From positions 160,001 through 224,000 of the IMG/VR virus record IMGVR_UViG_3300037067_027643: a stretch of DNA of 64,000 nt. The stretch is one strand, 5' to 3'. The translations under genes and the position numbers were made by a program. Position 1 is the stretch's first letter. Each line of letters opens with the position of its first letter. Positions 2,633 through 20,085 of this stretch are shown one piece after another. The DNA is from a virus (taxonomy: Duplodnaviria; Caudoviricetes). Under the pieces are notes generated by a model. The model was given only the letters and a program-made list of their open reading frames with translations, ran no database searches and was not told where the DNA came from.

Positions 2633-2960
2633 TGAAACAACCAATCCACTTAATAGATGACTTCGGAACTGTTTACTCCATTGTTAAAGTTCGAAAAGAT
2701 AGATTAAATATATACCAACTTAATTCTATCTACATAGATAAAAGTAATTACAAAATAAAATTCAAACTTTCTGAATGTAATAAAAATTATATTAAACAAT
2801 GTGGAATTAAACTTAAAGAGTGCAATCGAGAAACAGTATTGGAATATATAAAAAGAACTTGGAATCAGGTAAACCCAACTTATCCGGATTGGAATGAAAA
2901 GATTGAGATACTTTATAAGCAATTAAATAACCCACAACAATAAATTAAAAATGAATTAAA

Positions 2961-3413
2961 ATGATAATAACCAAAGAAGATATATTAGAAGGTAATAAAC
3001 TATTAGCAGAATTCAAAGGATATAAATATTATCTTATAACAGAAGTAGAAGATACATATCATGCTGGATGGAAATTGACAAAGAATGCACATAGTTTGGA
3101 TAAATATGATACTACAGCTGGAAATGGACCATTTAAAAGATATTTAACTAGGAGCCACAATGGTTTACGATTCTATAATTCTTACGACTGGTTAATGCCT
3201 ATTTATTTAGAAATTAAAAATAATCATGAATATGGATGTCAATTATTTTGTATTTCAACTGATTATATAGAAGTAATAATAAATGATTTAAACTTAGGAA
3301 AATCAGTAATTACAAAATATTATTATAAAGATTTTTATTCAGAACTAACTGCATTGTGGTTTGCAATTGTAGAATTTATTAAGTGGTACAATAATTGGAA
3401 TAATTTAAGATAA
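2961..3413 (+). CDS. Hypothetical phage protein, paralog of 3421..3858
   Basis: Shared motifs N(K)xxAEF, S(Y/F)DWLMP, EFIKWYN. Confidence 0.7.
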   Translation: MIITKEDILEGNKLLAEFKGYKYYLITEVEDTYHAGWKLTKNAHSLDKYDTTAGNGPFKRYLTRSHNGLRFYNSYDWLMPIYLEIKNNHEYGCQLFCISTDYIEVIINDLNLGKSVITKYYYKDFYSELTALWFAIVEFIKWYNNWNNLR

Positions 3414-3420
3414 ATAAAAA

Positions 3421-3858
3421 ATGAAAACAATATTAACACAACAAGAAATAATAGAAAGTAATAAATCAATTGCTGAGTTTATAGATTTGACACCACATAA
3501 TATGTTTCCCGATGAATTACAAGCACCTGATAATTTTGCATGGATGGCGATAAATGTAAATATTAATGCCGATTATCAAAAAGAATATAATGAATTTAAA
3601 GGATTTGAATATTTATTTAAATTTCATTCATCGTTTGATTGGTTAATGCCTGTTGTAGAAAAAATTGAATCATTAGGATTTCAATTTGATATCATTGGAA
3701 GACTATTACCAAATAGTAAAGAAAAAATGCATTTTATTTGGTTGTGGGACGATAACCAAGAAATTCATATTGAATGTCCCGAAATGGAAACTAAAAAAGA
3801 AGCAATTTATATTGGTTGTATCGAATTTATCAAATGGTATAATAATAAAAATAAATAA
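3421..3858 (+). CDS. Hypothetical phage protein, paralog of 2961..3413
   Basis: FHSSFDWLMPVVEKIE and CIEFIKWYN motifs. Confidence 0.7.
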   Translation: MKTILTQQEIIESNKSIAEFIDLTPHNMFPDELQAPDNFAWMAINVNINADYQKEYNEFKGFEYLFKFHSSFDWLMPVVEKIESLGFQFDIIGRLLPNSKEKMHFIWLWDDNQEIHIECPEMETKKEAIYIGCIEFIKWYNNKNK

Positions 3859-14929: not shown

Positions 14930-16152
14930 AATATGAACAAAGAAGAGGTAGCTAAAAAAGTAATTGACATAATTAACAATGCAGACTATGTTGATCCGGC
15001 CGAATACATTTATGATGGTCAAAAATTTTTAGATGTTACACTACGAAGAGGAGAAGATGTTTCTGGACATTTATTTGATTTATATAATACATTATTAGAT
15101 CCGAATTCTTGGTGTGAAATTGATAATTCTTTACAACCTGCTATAGATTTATTAAAACAGTATTTTGATGAAAATCCATATAAAAATACAAACGAAACAA
15201 ACATTAATTTTCATCAAGTTGTCGAAAATAGTCAATGTTTTGATAGTTTAGAACAGATATTAAATTATGTGTCATTTATTAGTAAAGATGAATATCTAAA
15301 AATAGGGTTAGAAAATACTATTAAAAATGGATATAAATTAGTAAAGGAATAAATATGTTAATAACTTTAGTATTTGTTTTTTGTATGTTATATTTAGTTA
15401 TTTTAATTAACATAAGAAGATCAAAATATTGTGATTTATATATTAATATTAATAAATTATGTAGCGAATATAATCAGTGGCAATTTAGAAATGGATTAAA
15501 TTATTTTGATAATAAATTTGAAAACGCGTATCACTTTTGTAGAAATGAATTCCCCTTAGAAATTACTAATAAATTATTGTTTTCACTTAAAAAATTAGAT
15601 ATGAAAACATTATTTACTAATGATATGAAAATCAAATTTGAAAAATATTTAATGGATAATAGATAATAATTAAAATATAATTTTACAAAATGGAAGAAAC
15701 ACCAAATAATAAAAAATCAAAACGACCAGTAAATACAAATACTACAAAAGATAATAGATTGTCAGATAAAGATATTAATCAAATAACAGCTACTAAAATA
15801 ATATATAGTAATGCTAATGAACTACATAAATTCTTTGAATCAAATAAGGATAATACCAAAGAATTTATTATAAAAGAAATAGCTAAAAATTTAAATAATA
15901 TTAAAAAACAAGATATTATATTATTTGAACTGGAAAGTGTAATGTATAATAATAGTAATATTGTTTTGAACTTACCAAGAACTGAATGGGTAAATGCGTT
16001 GGAAGATATACGTAAATATTATGAAAGTAAATTAGAATCGATTAATGCACAACAAACCGATTTTGAAAAATGTACAGAAATAAGAGAATTAATAAAAAAA
16101 TTAAATAGAAAAATAAATAAAAATAACAAATTAAAAAAGGAGAAATAAAATT

Positions 16153-16383
16153 ATGAGAACAGACGAATTTATCTATTACAATGTAAATGTAAGTTTTAAA
16201 GTAGAAACAGATGAAGGTAAAGAAAAGAAAATCAAAGAAAAATATCTTGTAAAAGCCATCGGATGTACCGACGCAGAAGCAATAGTTACTAAAGAGTTTA
16301 CTGGTACAAACGATTTTAAAGTTGAATCAATTGCAGAAACTAAAATTATCAATGTTTTAGAAGCCGATATGAAAGATGAATAA
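16153..16383 (+). CDS. DUF4494-like protein (Bacteroidota family)
   Basis: GKEKKIKEKYLVKAIGCTDAEA...FKVESIAETKI pattern. Confidence 0.65.
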   Translation: MRTDEFIYYNVNVSFKVETDEGKEKKIKEKYLVKAIGCTDAEAIVTKEFTGTNDFKVESIAETKIINVLEADMKDE

Positions 16384-16789
16384 TAGTGAAGCAACTATTC
16401 GATTTGAAGAATTTTTAAAATCAATTGGAGGTATAGAAAATGGGATGTATCTCAATAGACCTCCAATTGTTGTTCGTTATTTCTTTTCTGTAGGAGATGG
16501 TTGGTTACCAATGATTCAAGAACTTATCGAAAAACTTATTCTTTTAGGTTGGGATAAAAAGATTTGTCAAGTTAAAGAAAAGTTTGGTGGACTTAGATTT
16601 TATGTAGTTAATAATACCAAAGAAATTTCTGATTTAATCAAAGAATACGAAGTAAAATCATTTAAAATTTGTGATGTATGTGGGTGTGACATTTGTAAAA
16701 CGAGTTCTGTAAATGGCTGGATATATTCTAGATGTGAAAAACATAGACCAGAAGAACTTACATCGTGTTTACAGTCAAAAGATAACTAA
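16376..16789 (+). CDS. Conserved phage hypothetical protein
   Basis: VGDGW...QVKEKFGGLRFY...ICDVCG motif common in large phages. Confidence 0.6.
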   Translation: MNNSEATIRFEEFLKSIGGIENGMYLNRPPIVVRYFFSVGDGWLPMIQELIEKLILLGWDKKICQVKEKFGGLRFYVVNNTKEISDLIKEYEVKSFKICDVCGCDICKTSSVNGWIYSRCEKHRPEELTSCLQSKDN

Positions 16790-16791
16790 CT

Positions 16792-17655
16792 ATGAAAAAT
16801 ATATTTATAAAAAATTGTTGTGATGGATTGTATAATTCATTTGATGTGCATTTTACAAGTGTTTGTGATAATAAATGTAATCATTGTATTGATTTAAAAT
16901 ATAATGGTTTTGGAATTAAAAAACCAGATGTAGATTCAATAGTAAATACAATTATTGAAAATCAAAATGGATATGATGATGTTTTATTTTTAGGAGGAGA
17001 ACCATGTATTTATTTAAAGGAATTGGTTGATTGTATAGAACAAGTAAAATCAAAAACAAATTTAAAAATATATGTAACAACATCTGTTCCTAAAATATGT
17101 AAAGATCGATTTGATTTATTTACGAAACTACTCGAATTAGTTGATGGAATAAATTTATCAGTACAACATTATAAAGAAGAGATTGCAGATAAAATTAGAA
17201 ATGTATCATCAAAATATAATAGACAAGAATTTTATAATAGTTTATCTTATAAAGAAAAAATAAGAATAAATTTAAATATTGTAAAACCATATTTATATAC
17301 AAAAGAAGATATTACAAATTGTTTGATACATTATGATAAAATGGGATTTAATGAAATAAAACTTTCAGAAATACAACATGGAAAAGATTATTATGTTTCT
17401 TTTGAAAAGATGTTTAATATTAAGTTAGGATCACCATTTTATAGTGGTTGTCAAAAATATTTAAAAATGGATAAAATAATTCCAAATTTTAAAACACCTG
17501 TATTATTAAAACGTTCATGTTTTATGTGCGAAGAAACATTGAAAGCTTCTTTTATGGACGGTGTAAAAGTTGGATATAGATTATTTAGACCAAATAACAA
17601 AAATAAATATGGTGTTATTTATGAAAATGGATGTTTAACAAATAAATGGAGATAA
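16792..17655 (+). CDS. Radical SAM enzyme
   Basis: CxxxCxxC (CDNKCNHC), FLGGEP, additional Cys at NCCDG, SGCQ, RSCFMCE. Confidence 0.9.
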   Translation: MKNIFIKNCCDGLYNSFDVHFTSVCDNKCNHCIDLKYNGFGIKKPDVDSIVNTIIENQNGYDDVLFLGGEPCIYLKELVDCIEQVKSKTNLKIYVTTSVPKICKDRFDLFTKLLELVDGINLSVQHYKEEIADKIRNVSSKYNRQEFYNSLSYKEKIRINLNIVKPYLYTKEDITNCLIHYDKMGFNEIKLSEIQHGKDYYVSFEKMFNIKLGSPFYSGCQKYLKMDKIIPNFKTPVLLKRSCFMCEETLKASFMDGVKVGYRLFRPNNKNKYGVIYENGCLTNKWR

Positions 17656-17659
17656 AATT

Positions 17660-17767
17660 ATGTTTACAAGAATTTTAAGAAAAGTAGTAAAGAAATTAGA
17701 AAATAGTAGAAACGGACATTGTTCTGGTGATATTGATGGAGGTGGTGGAACTGGACATTGTTATTAA
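17660..17767 (+). CDS. Unannotated 35-aa peptide MFTRILRKVVKKLENSRNGHCSGDIDGGGGTGHCY (candidate RiPP precursor)
   Basis: ATG 4 nt after the rSAM stop in an A-rich start context (aaatt-ATG). Basic helical leader and Gly-rich core with two GHC motifs. Fills the gap exactly to the convergent baseplate gene. Confidence 0.75.
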   Translation: MFTRILRKVVKKLENSRNGHCSGDIDGGGGTGHCY

Positions 17768-19653
17768 TAGTTCCGTACCCGTCCGTATATATCGCTTTGA
17801 GGGAAGCGAATTTCCCAGATCGATGGATCGGCCGATGTGTAAATTATGCCGTTTCTTTTGGAAGTCTCTAAATTGTAAATGTTTGGAACATAGCCCTTTA
17901 GCTGATCAAATTGATTGTAAAAGCGAAGAGAAATCACACTTTGAACTCCCACAGTATTAGCAATTACTTGAACTACTTCGTTTTTTATGATTGGCTGATT
18001 GATTTGCCATTTATCTATATCAAAGTAAGATTTTACATTATCTATCGCTCTTAATAATACTTCACTTGCAATATAGTTACTTAATACAGTTATTTCAAAC
18101 GACACAGCAATATTAATTACAAAGGCATCCTTTATATTAATACTATCAGTTAACATTTTAAATTTACTTAGATAAGTTTTTAAATTTTCTTTAATGGCTG
18201 TATTTGTTTGTACCAGTTGTTTCTGACTGTTATAAGATAATATATATAAATTTAATGCTAATGGATTTGCTATTCGTTGACTATAATCAAAAAAGTTTAA
18301 TTGATCATCTTGAGTAATATATGCTTTAGCTATGCTTCCAAATTTAGCTGGCATAGAATAAGTTCTGATAATATAATCTTCCAATGTAACAGCTCTATCT
18401 TGAGCAATAAAGAAACTCATAGCATTATCTCTTATCTCATCTACTGATTCAGCTCCTCTACCACCTGTAGCATTATTTAAATTGGTACATGATACTGATT
18501 GTTTTATTAATGCTAATACATTTGGGTTAATAGATTGATCACTTGTAAAGTATTCTATATTAGAAATTGTTTGAAGTGTATTTGCTGGAGTATTTGATTG
18601 TATCCCTCCTCCTACTGTATATTTTACTGTTAAAGTAGTATTAACTGGAACCTGTCCATAACTCTTTGTATATAAGAAATTAGCTGGATCCCATGTAGTA
18701 TTGATTTTACTTAAACCACCCATAAATGGAAGTCCTACATTATCTGGATTAGGAGTAATTATCTCATCTGGCATTACACTATTACCACTTCCAAATCTCA
18801 GTTCCAGTTTATTATCTGATGTATATCTTGTTATAAATCTTTTGCTTACTTTTAATTGTTTTAATAGATAAGGAGTTTGATTTTTATATGTTGCTAGTTC
18901 TGGACTGTTAGTTGTTGTATTAGGTTGATCTATAAATATTGTATCCTGTGCTAAGAAAGGAACTTCATACCAATTATTACCATTACTATCTACCACACTA
19001 TCAATTGATATAATACTGGTATCTGGTATTGTTACTGATATATAAGGATCACTAGCACCGAAGTTGAATTGAATTGTTTTCTGAACTCCAGCTTCTACTT
19101 GTACTTGTTTCATTAACAAATAGTAATCTATTATCCCTGTTGTTTCGTTTAATTTATATACAGTAATATCAGTAGAATCATTTGAACCAGAAACAGCAAA
19201 GTTAATTGTATCTGTGGTATGAAATATTACCTGACTATTTTCATTAGAAGTAATTTCCATATTAGGTTTAATAGCTAAAGCATAACTCCAATCCGGTGTA
19301 GTTGAATTTGCTATTTGTATTGATGGTATTATTTGATATATGTTTAAAGTTGTTCTTGCTGGATATGTAGGTCTTGGTTTATATCCCATTGATTGAGCTA
19401 TATCTAATATGTTTGCTCTTTCTGTTGTTTGGCTAAATAAGTTTTCTTTTAAATTATAATCAGTATAATAAGATAACACATCACCAATATATGATCCCAT
19501 TTCTATGAACATCATATTTGGATCACCTTCGTTTAAATCATTGAAAGTGTTCTTATAGTAAGTCTTAGCAAACGCTATAAGATTTTCTTTAAACTGATTA
19601 AAGTCTTTCCCTAGGTAATTAATGTCTTTATTATTTTGATTATTGTTTGCCAT
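17764..19653 (-). CDS. Baseplate wedge protein (T4 gp6 / J-like)
   Basis: YLGKDFNQFK, YIGDVLSYY, GYKP, RFGSG, GGGIQSN, ATGGRGAES..IR, QDRAVTLEDY. Confidence 0.92.
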   Translation of the reverse strand: MANNNQNNKDINYLGKDFNQFKENLIAFAKTYYKNTFNDLNEGDPNMMFIEMGSYIGDVLSYYTDYNLKENLFSQTTERANILDIAQSMGYKPRPTYPARTTLNIYQIIPSIQIANSTTPDWSYALAIKPNMEITSNENSQVIFHTTDTINFAVSGSNDSTDITVYKLNETTGIIDYYLLMKQVQVEAGVQKTIQFNFGASDPYISVTIPDTSIISIDSVVDSNGNNWYEVPFLAQDTIFIDQPNTTTNSPELATYKNQTPYLLKQLKVSKRFITRYTSDNKLELRFGSGNSVMPDEIITPNPDNVGLPFMGGLSKINTTWDPANFLYTKSYGQVPVNTTLTVKYTVGGGIQSNTPANTLQTISNIEYFTSDQSINPNVLALIKQSVSCTNLNNATGGRGAESVDEIRDNAMSFFIAQDRAVTLEDYIIRTYSMPAKFGSIAKAYITQDDQLNFFDYSQRIANPLALNLYILSYNSQKQLVQTNTAIKENLKTYLSKFKMLTDSINIKDAFVINIAVSFEITVLSNYIASEVLLRAIDNVKSYFDIDKWQINQPIIKNEVVQVIANTVGVQSVISLRFYNQFDQLKGYVPNIYNLETSKRNGIIYTSADPSIWEIRFPQSDIYGRVRNY

Positions 19654-19659
19654 TTAGTT

Positions 19660-20085
19660 TTATCCGTTGGTAATTGGTAATGTCAGAGTATCTTTTTTAT
19701 TATATAGTTCAACTGAAAATTCAATATGTATATTTAATGTGTATTCTATTTTTGGATCGTTTGTAATTGAAATATCATCTATTGTTACAAATGGCATCCA
19801 TCTCGATACAGAATTTCTTACTAATGTTTCTATATCTATTTTATTTTTATTAGTGTCGTTTTCAAATAACCTTCTTCTTAATCCACATCCATATTCTGGA
19901 AGCATTATTCTTTCTCCTGGTTCTGTAAGTAGTAGATTTTTTAAATTGGTTTTTATTTGATCAAATGTTAAATAGTTACTCTTGAAATTCATATTGTTGT
20001 CAGTAGTAATAGGTAATGATAATCCGATAGCTATATCAGTTTCAAAATCTAAGGGATTAATACGAGTTTCAACAATATTTGACAT
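19660..20085 (-). CDS. Baseplate protein gp25/GPW-like
   Basis: IKTNLKNLLLTEPGERIMLPEYGCGL..LFE, RWMPFV. Confidence 0.92.
   Translation of the reverse strand: MSNIVETRINPLDFETDIAIGLSLPITTDNNMNFKSNYLTFDQIKTNLKNLLLTEPGERIMLPEYGCGLRRRLFENDTNKNKIDIETLVRNSVSRWMPFVTIDDISITNDPKIEYTLNIHIEFSVELYNKKDTLTLPITNG

What the first reader, a model, noticed from the sequence alone, without database searches (positions are those of the whole stretch)
16792..17767. Radical SAM enzyme plus hidden 35-aa GHC-repeat peptide: candidate phage-encoded RiPP system
Seen: the rSAM gene (CDNKCNHC, GGEP, extra Cys clusters) stops at 17655. An ORF missed by the track starts at 17660 and encodes MFTRILRKVVKKLENSRN-GHCSGDIDGGGGT-GHCY. 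It has a basic amphipathic leader-like half and a Gly-rich core with two GHC motifs, it is unusually GC-rich for this genome, and it ends 4 nt into the convergent baseplate gene. Known: rSAM maturases of sactipeptides, ranthipeptides and cyclophanes sit next to short leader-core precursor genes and crosslink Cys/His/aromatic residues. Inference: the phage makes a post-translationally modified peptide (for example His-Cys or Cys-Calpha/beta crosslinks, or a metal-binding peptide) for signalling, competition or anti-defence. I do not recognise the GHC-x10-GHC core or this short, non-SPASM rSAM as a described class.
Basis: partly seen in the sequence, partly recalled or inferred. Interest (0 to 1): 0.92.

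Follow-up and report, generated by a model that had tools for sequence, protein, structure and literature searches.

The report
Phage radical-SAM enzyme with cysteine-motif peptide
This giant phage has a two-gene unit, a compact iron-sulfur "radical SAM" enzyme followed by a 35-residue peptide with two Gly-His-Cys motifs; the pairing recurs in about 70 other phage contigs, up to Lak megaphages, so it is probably an undescribed enzyme-plus-substrate system that makes a modified peptide.

Summary
A 287-aa radical SAM (rSAM) gene lies at 16792-17655. A 35-aa ORF at 17660-17767 follows it, with a basic helical N-terminal half and a Gly-rich tail carrying two GHC motifs.

- **Recurrence.** Of 72 phage or MAG loci with a homologous rSAM, an automatic rule finds a Cys-motif ORF beside the enzyme in 68, and about 71 by eye. 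Other small ORFs match the rule in only 19 of 4241 cases.
- **Motif range.** All rSAMs at 53% identity or more have GHC...GHC peptides. More distant ones have GCH variants. Others, including Lak megaphages, have 90-170 aa proteins with GGCG repeats ending in Cys.
- **Gene architecture.** One locus has two tandem precursor genes. A small subclade has the tail fused to the enzyme.
- **The enzyme.** It has no SPASM or RRE domain. It has three extra universally conserved Cys (C10, C220, C243).
- **Predicted binding.** A complex prediction supports binding (0.78, best control 0.01). The leader lies on helix 254-265 and the first GHC lies near C10 and Q195. Q195 switches to Phe in the His-less class.

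Best reading: a leader-guided, Cys-directed peptide maturase. The chemistry and the biological role are unknown.

I found no description in the literature or in family libraries. This scan has reported the same family before on other DNA (e1-3506680, e1-4111224, e1-3418501).

The parts
16792..17655 (+). Radical SAM enzyme gene, 287 aa, stop included
16864..16887 (+). C25-x3-C29-x2-C32 motif, which ligates the SAM-binding [4Fe-4S] cluster
   Evidence: Invariant in 51 distant family members and in every peptide class.
16993..17004 (+). G68-G69-E70-P71 SAM-binding motif
   Evidence: Invariant in alignments A1 and A2.
16819..16821 (+). Cys10 within the invariant N8-x-C10-D11 motif; inferred ligand of a second (auxiliary) cluster
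   Evidence: Invariant across the family. Residues 9-10 touch peptide residues 19-21 in the predicted complex. The ligand role is inference.
17449..17451 (+). Cys220; inferred auxiliary-cluster ligand
   Evidence: Invariant across the family and in every peptide class.
17518..17520 (+). Cys243; inferred auxiliary-cluster ligand
   Evidence: Invariant across the family. The adjacent residues 244-246 touch the leader in the predicted complex.
17374..17376 (+). Gln195, an enzyme position that covaries with the peptide's motif type
   Evidence: It is Q in 38 of 38 enzymes paired with His-containing peptides and F in 11 of 12 paired with His-free GGCG proteins. It touches the core in the predicted complex.
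17521..17592 (+). Residues 244-267 (strand plus helix 254-265), the predicted leader-docking surface
   Evidence: The lowest-error contacts in the complex prediction are with leader residues 2-14. D256 and K259 are invariant or nearly invariant.
17648..17652 (+). GGAGA Shine-Dalgarno-like site for the peptide ORF, inside the rSAM's last codons (W286-R287)
   Evidence: Read directly from the sequence. A similar GGAG or GGA site lies before the peptide ATG in most related loci.
17660..17767 (+). Precursor peptide gene, 35 aa, stop included
   Evidence: ORF. Conserved partner of the enzyme. Alignment A3.
17660..17713 (+). Leader, residues 1-18 (M-F-T-R-I-L-R-K...), a basic amphipathic helix
   Evidence: M1 is invariant and T3 nearly invariant, within the consensus MxTKxLRKI. 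Docks on rSAM residues 244-267 in the model.
17714..17722 (+). First Gly-His-Cys motif (G19-H20-C21)
   Evidence: H20 and C21 are invariant and G19 nearly invariant in 23 peptides. Synonymous codon variation at these positions. Contacts rSAM residues 9-10 and 195.
17753..17761 (+). Second Gly-His-Cys motif (G32-H33-C34), one residue from the C-terminus
   Evidence: Invariant in 23 peptides. In all classes the last Cys lies 0-3 residues from the end.
17764..19653 (-). Convergent baseplate-wedge gene (context, not part of the unit)
   Evidence: PHROG 219 and 10646, baseplate wedge subunit, 3.5e-20. The neighbouring gene matches gp25.

Best explanation
This is a dedicated two-gene enzyme-substrate unit. 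The 35-aa product is a leader-core precursor. Its N-terminal amphipathic helix docks on the C-terminal helix (residues about 244-267) of a minimal radical SAM enzyme, which has no SPASM or RRE domain. That docking brings the Gly-rich core with its Gly-His-Cys motifs to the active site. There the enzyme uses SAM-derived radical chemistry to modify the core at or through its cysteines. The enzyme has the canonical CX3CX2C cluster plus three more universally conserved Cys (C10, C220, C243). I infer that these hold a second [4Fe-4S] cluster with one free iron, and that a substrate Cys binds that iron, as in the sactipeptide/ranthipeptide synthase CteB. The most likely single chemistry is therefore Cys-S to carbon thioether crosslinking, about 35-40% within this reading. 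Alternatives are Cys oxidation, epimerisation, or modification of the C-terminal Cys. No protease or exporter travels with the pair. The product therefore probably acts inside the infected cell or is released at lysis. A metal-binding (2 His + 2 Cys) peptide is a plausible end product. What is shown: the genes, their conservation, their pairing, and selection on the peptide. What is supported by a model only: binding and its geometry. What is inferred: the auxiliary cluster, the chemistry and the biological role.
For: Pairing. All 14 close relatives, 68 of 72 wider loci by rule and about 71 by eye have a same-strand Cys-motif ORF at the enzyme's 3' end. Elsewhere the rule matches 19 of 4241 small ORFs. 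Host-contig GC ranges from 0.24 to 0.56, and no other neighbour is shared across the loci.

Selection on the peptide. His is encoded CAT 49 times and CAC 17 times, Cys TGT 38 and TGC 28, and the preceding Gly by all four codons.

Substrate-like behaviour. The leader is conserved while the core spacer varies from 2 to 17 residues. Motif number is 2 or 4. One locus has two tandem precursor genes with different cores (L034 = L012). Motif variants are HC, CH and GCG.

Enzyme-core covariation. G12, S16, D26, L67, T96, Q195 and Q221 are fixed with His-containing cores and switch to Q, E, P, S, I, F and K with His-free cores.

Predicted complex. The score is 0.78 against a best control of 0.01. That mark was reached by 58 of 80 solved complexes and 2 of 110 mismatched pairs. 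The runs agree in at least 41% of contacts and the partner's pLDDT is at least 55. My own alignments and riding ligands were used, so the calibration holds only roughly.

Confidence: 0.7

Rival explanations
1. Carrier-peptide or cofactor pathway. The enzyme works on the C-terminal Cys (with its neighbour), and the modified end is then cut off as a small molecule or redox cofactor, as with mycofactocin (MftA/MftC), PQQ (PqqA/PqqE) or the pearlin carrier peptides. It may be linked to NAD metabolism.
For: In every class the last Cys lies 0-3 residues from the C-terminus. In the GGCG clade, and in L074 and L081, the enzyme sits beside NadR-type (CTP_transf_like + AAA_28) and PnuC (NMN_transporter, 1.9e-40) genes. 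Fused enzyme-tail forms suit a low-turnover pathway. Earlier scan notes e1-5011714 and e1-2860438 report the same NAD neighbourhood.
Against: No peptidase or further tailoring gene is conserved next to the pair. The window's own genome has neither PnuC nor a NadR-like gene. Motifs come in 2 to 8 copies per precursor, not only at the end. The last residue after the Cys is variable (Y, S, N, G, D, F, H).
Confidence: 0.12
2. The small protein is not a substrate but a subunit. Its Cys/His pairs complete or regulate the enzyme's second cluster, or deliver metal or sulfur to it, and the true substrate is something else, for example a nucleotide as in viperin or MoaA.
For: The closest solved structures by sequence profile are viperin-like enzymes, and MoaA is tied in fold score. 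MoaA also has a three-Cys auxiliary cluster (general knowledge). Natural fusions exist. The binding prediction fits a subunit equally well. The NAD-salvage neighbourhood in some clades points to nucleotides.
Against: Scores against the curated viperin, MoaA and activase models are far below their cut-offs (29.7 vs 180, 22 vs 284, 30 vs 131). Variable spacer length, variable motif number, tandem paralogues with different cores and a hypervariable core beside a conserved leader are typical of substrates, not of cluster-ligating subunits.
Confidence: 0.12
3. The 35-aa ORF is a chance reading frame in the gap between convergent genes and is not translated.
For: It is short. No RNA-holding run was listed, so expression is untested.
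Against: The frame, the leader and both motifs are conserved in dozens of phages with GC from 0.24 to 0.56, with synonymous variation at the key codons and an upstream GGAG. It is unique in the genome.
Confidence: 0.01

Closest known systems
Ranthipeptide (SCIFF) and sactipeptide systems: CteB/CteA, PapB/PapA, SkfB/SkfA, AlbA/SboA
   Same: A radical SAM enzyme sits next to a short leader-core precursor with a Cys-containing, Gly-rich C-terminal core. CteB (5WHY) is the top Foldseek match, and SkfB and SuiB are also high. An extra cluster with a free iron that binds the substrate Cys is inferred here and known for CteB.
   Different: There is no SPASM domain; only three extra conserved Cys are present, one of them N-terminal (C10). 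There is no RRE/PqqD-like leader-binding domain; the leader is predicted to bind a C-terminal helix instead. The enzyme is 287 aa against roughly 400-450. The core motif Gly-(His)-Cys at the very C-terminus is different. There is no match to NCBIfam precursor or maturase models. The system is carried by phages with no protease or exporter.
Mycofactocin MftA/MftC and PQQ PqqA/PqqE
   Same: A radical SAM enzyme acts on the C-terminal residues of a small ribosomal peptide encoded beside it. The product is used inside the cell rather than exported.
   Different: Those enzymes have SPASM domains and need a separate PqqD/MftB chaperone. Their targets are Val-Tyr or Glu...Tyr, not Cys motifs. Further processing enzymes are clustered with them, and none is conserved here. 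PqqE scores 16.5 bits against a cut-off of 381.
Borosins (OphMA and the split bacterial systems)
   Same: One family has both architectures: the core fused to the C-terminus of its own modifying enzyme, or encoded as a separate precursor.
   Different: Borosin enzymes are SAM-dependent N-methyltransferases, not radical SAM enzymes. The likeness is architectural only.
Methanobactin-type chalkophores (analogy only)
   Same: A short ribosomal peptide in which two Cys-derived units give a two-nitrogen, two-sulfur metal site. Two His-Cys pairs would give the same donor set.
   Different: Methanobactins are made by MbnBC (a non-radical-SAM iron enzyme). No homology was found. Metal binding here is a guess from composition.
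Glycyl-radical-enzyme activases (PflA, NrdG), the name given by automatic annotation
   Different: Scores are far below the curated cut-offs (NrdG2 30.1 vs 131; PFLA 21.3 vs 232). No glycyl-radical enzyme is nearby. The three extra conserved Cys and the C-terminal domain are absent from PflA.

Membership tests
Radical SAM superfamily (PF04055) | CX3CX2C motif for the SAM-binding [4Fe-4S] cluster | tested here: met
   C25, C29 and C32 are invariant in 51 distant members. The Pfam score is 44.8 bits against a cut-off of 29.5.
Radical SAM superfamily (PF04055) | GGE SAM-binding motif and partial TIM-barrel fold | tested here: met
SPASM/twitch RiPP maturases (sactipeptide and ranthipeptide synthases) | C-terminal SPASM domain with the seven-Cys motif binding two auxiliary clusters | tested here: not met
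   There is no SPASM Pfam or NCBIfam domain hit. Beyond the SAM cluster only C10, C220 and C243 are universal.
SPASM/twitch RiPP maturases (sactipeptide and ranthipeptide synthases) | N-terminal RRE (PqqD-like) leader-recognition domain | tested here: not met
   Only 24 residues precede the CX3CX2C motif and no PqqD-like hit was found. The leader is predicted to bind residues 244-267.
SPASM/twitch RiPP maturases (sactipeptide and ranthipeptide synthases) | Adjacent leader-core precursor with Cys in the core | tested here: met
   68 of 72 loci by rule, about 71 by eye.
SPASM/twitch RiPP maturases (sactipeptide and ranthipeptide synthases) | Product with a Cys-S to carbon thioether bridge | not testable with these tools
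   This needs mass spectrometry or NMR of the co-expressed peptide.
SCIFF precursor family (NCBIfam) | Match to the curated precursor model | tested here: not met
   The 35-aa peptide matches no NCBIfam family even at E = 1 and no PHROG.
Glycyl-radical-enzyme activases (PflA/NrdG) | Score above the curated family cut-off, with a glycyl-radical enzyme partner | tested here: not met
   NrdG2 scores 30.1 bits against 131, PFLA 21.3 against 232 and PFLE_PFLC 20.4 against 174. No GRE gene is in the flanks.
Viperin (ddhNTP synthase) | Score above the curated family cut-off, and the C-terminal nucleotide-binding extension | tested here: not met
   NF038283 scores 29.7 bits against 180 and TIGR04278 scores 17.8 against 450. 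The profile match to solved viperins covers only core residues 16-188.
MoaA (GTP 3',8-cyclase) | Score above the curated family cut-off | tested here: not met

The most novel reading that the evidence does not exclude
A virus-borne class of ribosomal modified peptides, found from about 55-kb phages to 550-kb megaphages. In it a minimal radical SAM enzyme, lacking both SPASM and RRE domains, recognises its leader through a C-terminal helix. It uses a three-Cys second cluster to carry out a reaction not yet described on Gly-(His)-Cys motifs. One example would be building a two-nitrogen, two-sulfur metal-binding peptide or a C-terminal Cys-derived cofactor that the phage needs during infection, in some lineages together with NAD salvage.
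Probability: 0.4. Interest if true: 0.88.

Novelty: new variant of a known kind. Interest (0 to 1): 0.8.

Why it matters
Radical SAM peptide maturases have so far been described almost entirely from bacterial gene clusters, and they rely on SPASM and RRE domains. Here the same job appears to be done by a 287-residue enzyme with neither domain. It is paired with the shortest of precursors and spread across hundreds of uncultured phages of very different size and base composition.

If the pairing is what it seems, three things follow:
- It gives a minimal, portable scaffold for studying leader recognition and Cys-directed radical chemistry.
- It shows that phages routinely make post-translationally modified peptides of their own.
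- It opens the question of what such a peptide does during infection: metal capture, counter-defence, or a link to NAD salvage.

The system is only two small genes, so the question can be tested directly by co-expression.

Tried and rejected
- **Expression.** No RNA-holding run was listed for the stretch; only two DNA metagenomes hold it, groundwater and landfill. Laying their contigs showed an identical copy of 17545-17818 in the landfill run and many diverged homologues of the enzyme's motif regions. It said nothing about expression.
- **RNA and signal scans.** Rfam found nothing in 15000-20000. The promoter/terminator scan gave no terminator, and promoter-like sites were at the shuffled rate (67 against 61).
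- **Family libraries.** The peptide matches nothing in PHROGs or NCBIfam.
- **Genome search.** A genome-contig search with the wide alignment A2 failed for lack of a conserved stretch. The closer alignment A1 gave 7 MAG contigs, and the six with enough sequence after the enzyme gene all carry the peptide.
- **NAD link in this genome.** No PnuC or NadR-like gene is present.
- **Neighbourhood.** The baseplate adjacency was considered as a hint to a virion role. It recurs in the GGCG clade (gp25 downstream), but most loci have unrelated neighbours, so I do not build on it.
- **Literature.** Nine full-text searches found no description of this pair. The library is incomplete, so this is not proof.
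- **Model coordinates.** Coordinates of the predicted structures were not available, so cluster-ligand and SAM-to-substrate distances could not be measured.

Full report
**What is there.** The window is part of a 285,744-bp virus record with 25.5% GC.
- An ORF of 287 aa lies on the + strand at 16792-17655. It matches Pfam Radical_SAM (2e-11) and Fer4_12 (2e-07).
- It carries C25-x3-C29-x2-C32 and G68-G69-E70-P71.
- Four bases after its stop, an ATG at 17660 opens a 35-codon frame ending at 17767.
- The product has a basic N-terminal half (residues 1-18), then G19-H20-C21, a Gly-rich spacer, G32-H33-C34 and Y35.
- A GGAG lies 8 nt before the ATG, inside the enzyme's last two codons.
- The stop overlaps by 4 nt the end of a convergent baseplate-wedge gene (PHROG 219, 3.5e-20), which is followed by a gp25 gene.
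- The local GC rise (0.40-0.44) mostly belongs to the end of the baseplate gene.

**Is the small ORF real?** Yes.
- A first collection of 14 IMG/VR loci whose enzyme is 64-79% identical all have a small ORF at the same place. It has the same start (M-[Y/F/W]-T-[K/R]-x-L-R-K) and two (G)HC motifs, the second one residue from the end.
- A wider collection used a profile of 51 representatives at 27-64% identity. Together with MAG contigs it gave 72 loci with a full-length enzyme.
- I applied an automatic rule: same strand, starting from 60 nt before to 1100 nt after the end of the enzyme match, at most 140 aa, at least two Cys motifs, and the last Cys within 3 residues of the end. It is met in 68 of the 72 loci.
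- The same rule is met by 19 of 4241 small ORFs elsewhere in those loci.
- One of the 68 (L059) is a spurious overlapping ORF; its true partner lies just downstream. Three of the four misses are explained by eye: L030 has the peptide fused by a 1-nt run-length difference, L079 has it upstream, and L082 has a four-motif CH peptide. Only L081 shows nothing.
- Host-contig GC ranges from 0.24 to 0.56, and no other neighbour is shared across the loci.
- In 66 HC motifs of 29 distinct peptides, His is CAT 49 and CAC 17, Cys is TGT 38 and TGC 28, and the preceding Gly uses all four codons. Selection is therefore on the protein.
- In the window's own genome this is the only ORF with the leader, and one of three meeting even a loose tail rule among 3276 ORFs.

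**Shape of the family.** An exhaustive profile-free search finds 304 clusters (at 50% identity) with E up to 0.001, and 171 up to 1e-10. The word-indexed search finds 936 proteins. Nearly all are unnamed, or carry automatic names such as 'organic radical activating enzyme'. The ESM Atlas clusters nearest to it are 100% viral. In the collection of deposited phage genomes only the Lak megaphage MAGs carry it, at 35-37% identity.

The partner changes with enzyme divergence:
- **(i) Identity 53% or more, and some at 34-35%.** Peptides of 25-38 aa with two HC motifs, or about 60-72 aa with four. The spacer is 2-17 residues.
- **(ii) Several lineages at 33-39%.** The order is swapped: G-C-H...G-C-H at the very end, or mixed GCH...GHC.
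- **(iii) A clade at 39-46%, L077, and Lak-B1 and Lak-C1 (read with TAG as a sense codon).** Proteins of about 90-170 aa with a helical N-terminal part and a Gly/Ser-rich tail. The tail carries 2-8 G-G-C-G-type motifs and ends in Cys.

The common denominator is Cys in a Gly-rich tail, with the last Cys at or next to the C-terminus. His is clade-specific.

Two further architectures matter:
- L034 (= L012) has two tandem precursor genes with different cores.
- A small subclade has the tail fused to the enzyme. P0125 (346 aa) and P0271 (358 aa) are 50% identical to each other, and both end in D-C-H...G-H-C after a roughly 60-residue helical linker. P0238 ends in two GCH motifs.

**The enzyme.**
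- Across the 51-member alignment the invariant residues are N8, C10, D11, the three SAM-cluster Cys, GGEP, P100, S123, E193, C220, C243 and K259.
- Exactly six Cys are universal across all partner classes. I therefore infer a second cluster held by C10, C220 and C243 with one free coordination site.
- No SPASM or PqqD-like domain is detected.
- The AF2 model is confident (pLDDT 95, pTM 0.91).
- By sequence profile the nearest solved proteins are viperin-like enzymes (5e-17), but only over core residues 16-188.
- All curated NCBIfam models score far below their cut-offs. The enzyme belongs to no described family.

**Do the two proteins meet?** I ran the complex prediction with both alignments, two 4Fe-4S clusters and SAM.
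- The score was 0.78 (three runs: 0.75-0.79) against a best control of 0.01.
- That mark was reached by 58 of 80 solved complexes and 2 of 110 mismatched pairs in the tool's calibration.
- The runs agree in at least 41% of their contacts, and the partner's pLDDT is at least 55.
- Because my own alignments and riding ligands were used, the calibration holds only roughly. The model supports binding; it does not show it.
- Confident contacts put leader residues 2-14 on enzyme residues 244-267 (with 273 and 285). They put G19-H20-C21 against residues 9-10 and 195.
- This agrees with two independent observations. D256 and K259 on the docking helix are conserved. Q195 is Q in all 38 enzymes with His-containing partners and F in 11 of 12 with His-free partners. 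G12, S16, D26, L67, T96 and Q221 switch in the same way.
- Enzyme residues next to the predicted core site thus covary with the core motif. That is what an enzyme-substrate pair would show.

**Most likely mechanism.** The leader helix docks on the C-terminal helix. The core threads to the active site. A core Cys binds the free iron of the second cluster. The 5'-deoxyadenosyl radical abstracts a hydrogen from a nearby residue. A Cys-directed modification follows.
- Thioether crosslinking is the best single guess. It rests on the analogy with CteB-type enzymes, the Cys-plus-Gly composition, and the frequent pairing of motifs.
- Oxidation, epimerisation or C-terminal Cys chemistry are not excluded.
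- Because His-free classes exist, a His-Cys crosslink cannot be the general reaction.
- Two His-Cys pairs would give a two-nitrogen, two-sulfur metal site, so a metal-binding product is plausible. This is inference from composition only.

**Rivals.**
- *Carrier-peptide or cofactor pathway acting on the C-terminal Cys.* Evidence for it: the strict C-terminal position, the fused forms, and the recurrent neighbourhood of NadR-type and PnuC genes in the GGCG clade, L074 and L081. Earlier scan notes reported the same neighbourhood. Evidence against it: no processing enzyme is conserved, the window's genome has neither NAD gene, and internal motifs are multiple.
- *Subunit reading: the peptide completes the second cluster and the substrate is a nucleotide.* It fits the viperin/MoaA likeness and the fusions. 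It does not fit variable spacers, variable motif number and tandem paralogues.
- *Chance ORF.* Excluded.

**Novelty.** Nine full-text searches found no description. No family library has a specific model. This scan has reported the same family on other genomes (e1-3506680, e1-4111224, e1-3418501), and my independent tests agree with those reports. Radical SAM enzyme plus precursor is a known kind of system. The enzyme architecture, the leader-docking mode, the core motif and the viral carriage are new, so I rate it a new variant of a known kind.

**Habitat.** The stretch is held by a groundwater metagenome (probably its source) and, identically over 17545-17818, by a landfill metagenome from another study. 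Both also hold many diverged homologues. These settings are plausibly low in oxygen, which suits an oxygen-sensitive enzyme; that is inference.

Noticed in passing
window 16376-16789 (+): The 137-aa gene just upstream ends 2 nt before the rSAM ATG. It has a C-terminal Cys cluster (C-x2-C-x-C-x2-C ... C-x-K-H). It has no Pfam or PHROG match and only a weak NCBIfam LIC10235 hit (E 0.0025). It is not a conserved neighbour of the enzyme in other loci.
   Followed up: partly
L030 (= L010) about 2799-2942: One extra A in an A-run shifts the end of the rSAM frame so that it reads through into the peptide, giving a 324-aa fused ORF. The sister contigs L028 and L043 have the two genes separate. It is probably an assembly or homopolymer error, but it shows how the natural fusions could arise.
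   Followed up: partly
L034 (= L012) 2858-2938 and 2952-3050: Two tandem precursor genes lie behind one enzyme gene. Each has its own GGAGG site. Their cores differ: HC-SST-GHC-S against HC-x10-GHC-Y.
   Followed up: partly
L051-L064 and L083; also L074 and L081: In the clade with GGCG-repeat partners the enzyme lies between a PnuC-like NMN transporter plus a NadR-like gene (upstream) and a gp25 baseplate gene (downstream). The NadR/PnuC neighbourhood recurs in two more distant lineages.
   Followed up: partly
L015 (Lak-A2) 3395-3739 against L017 (Lak-C1): The Lak partner gene reads through to a ...SGGCG...SGGC end in Lak-C1 and Lak-B1. In Lak-A2 it is broken by a 1-nt difference in an A-run, and the Cys tail continues in the +1 frame. 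This is either an assembly error or a frameshift.
   Followed up: partly
L040, L041, L044-L047, L078: Partner peptides of 57-62 aa (72 aa in L078 if read from an upstream start) look like an internal duplication: two HC pairs separated by a conserved S-G-E-T-[L/F]-Y-R-K-[IV]-G linker. These loci lack a GGAG before the start codon.
   Followed up: no
window 16809-16892, runs X1 and X2: In both metagenomes several other contigs, at up to five times the depth of this phage, match the enzyme's N-terminal motif region at about 85-90% identity. Many different carriers of this family therefore coexist in the same samples.
   Followed up: no
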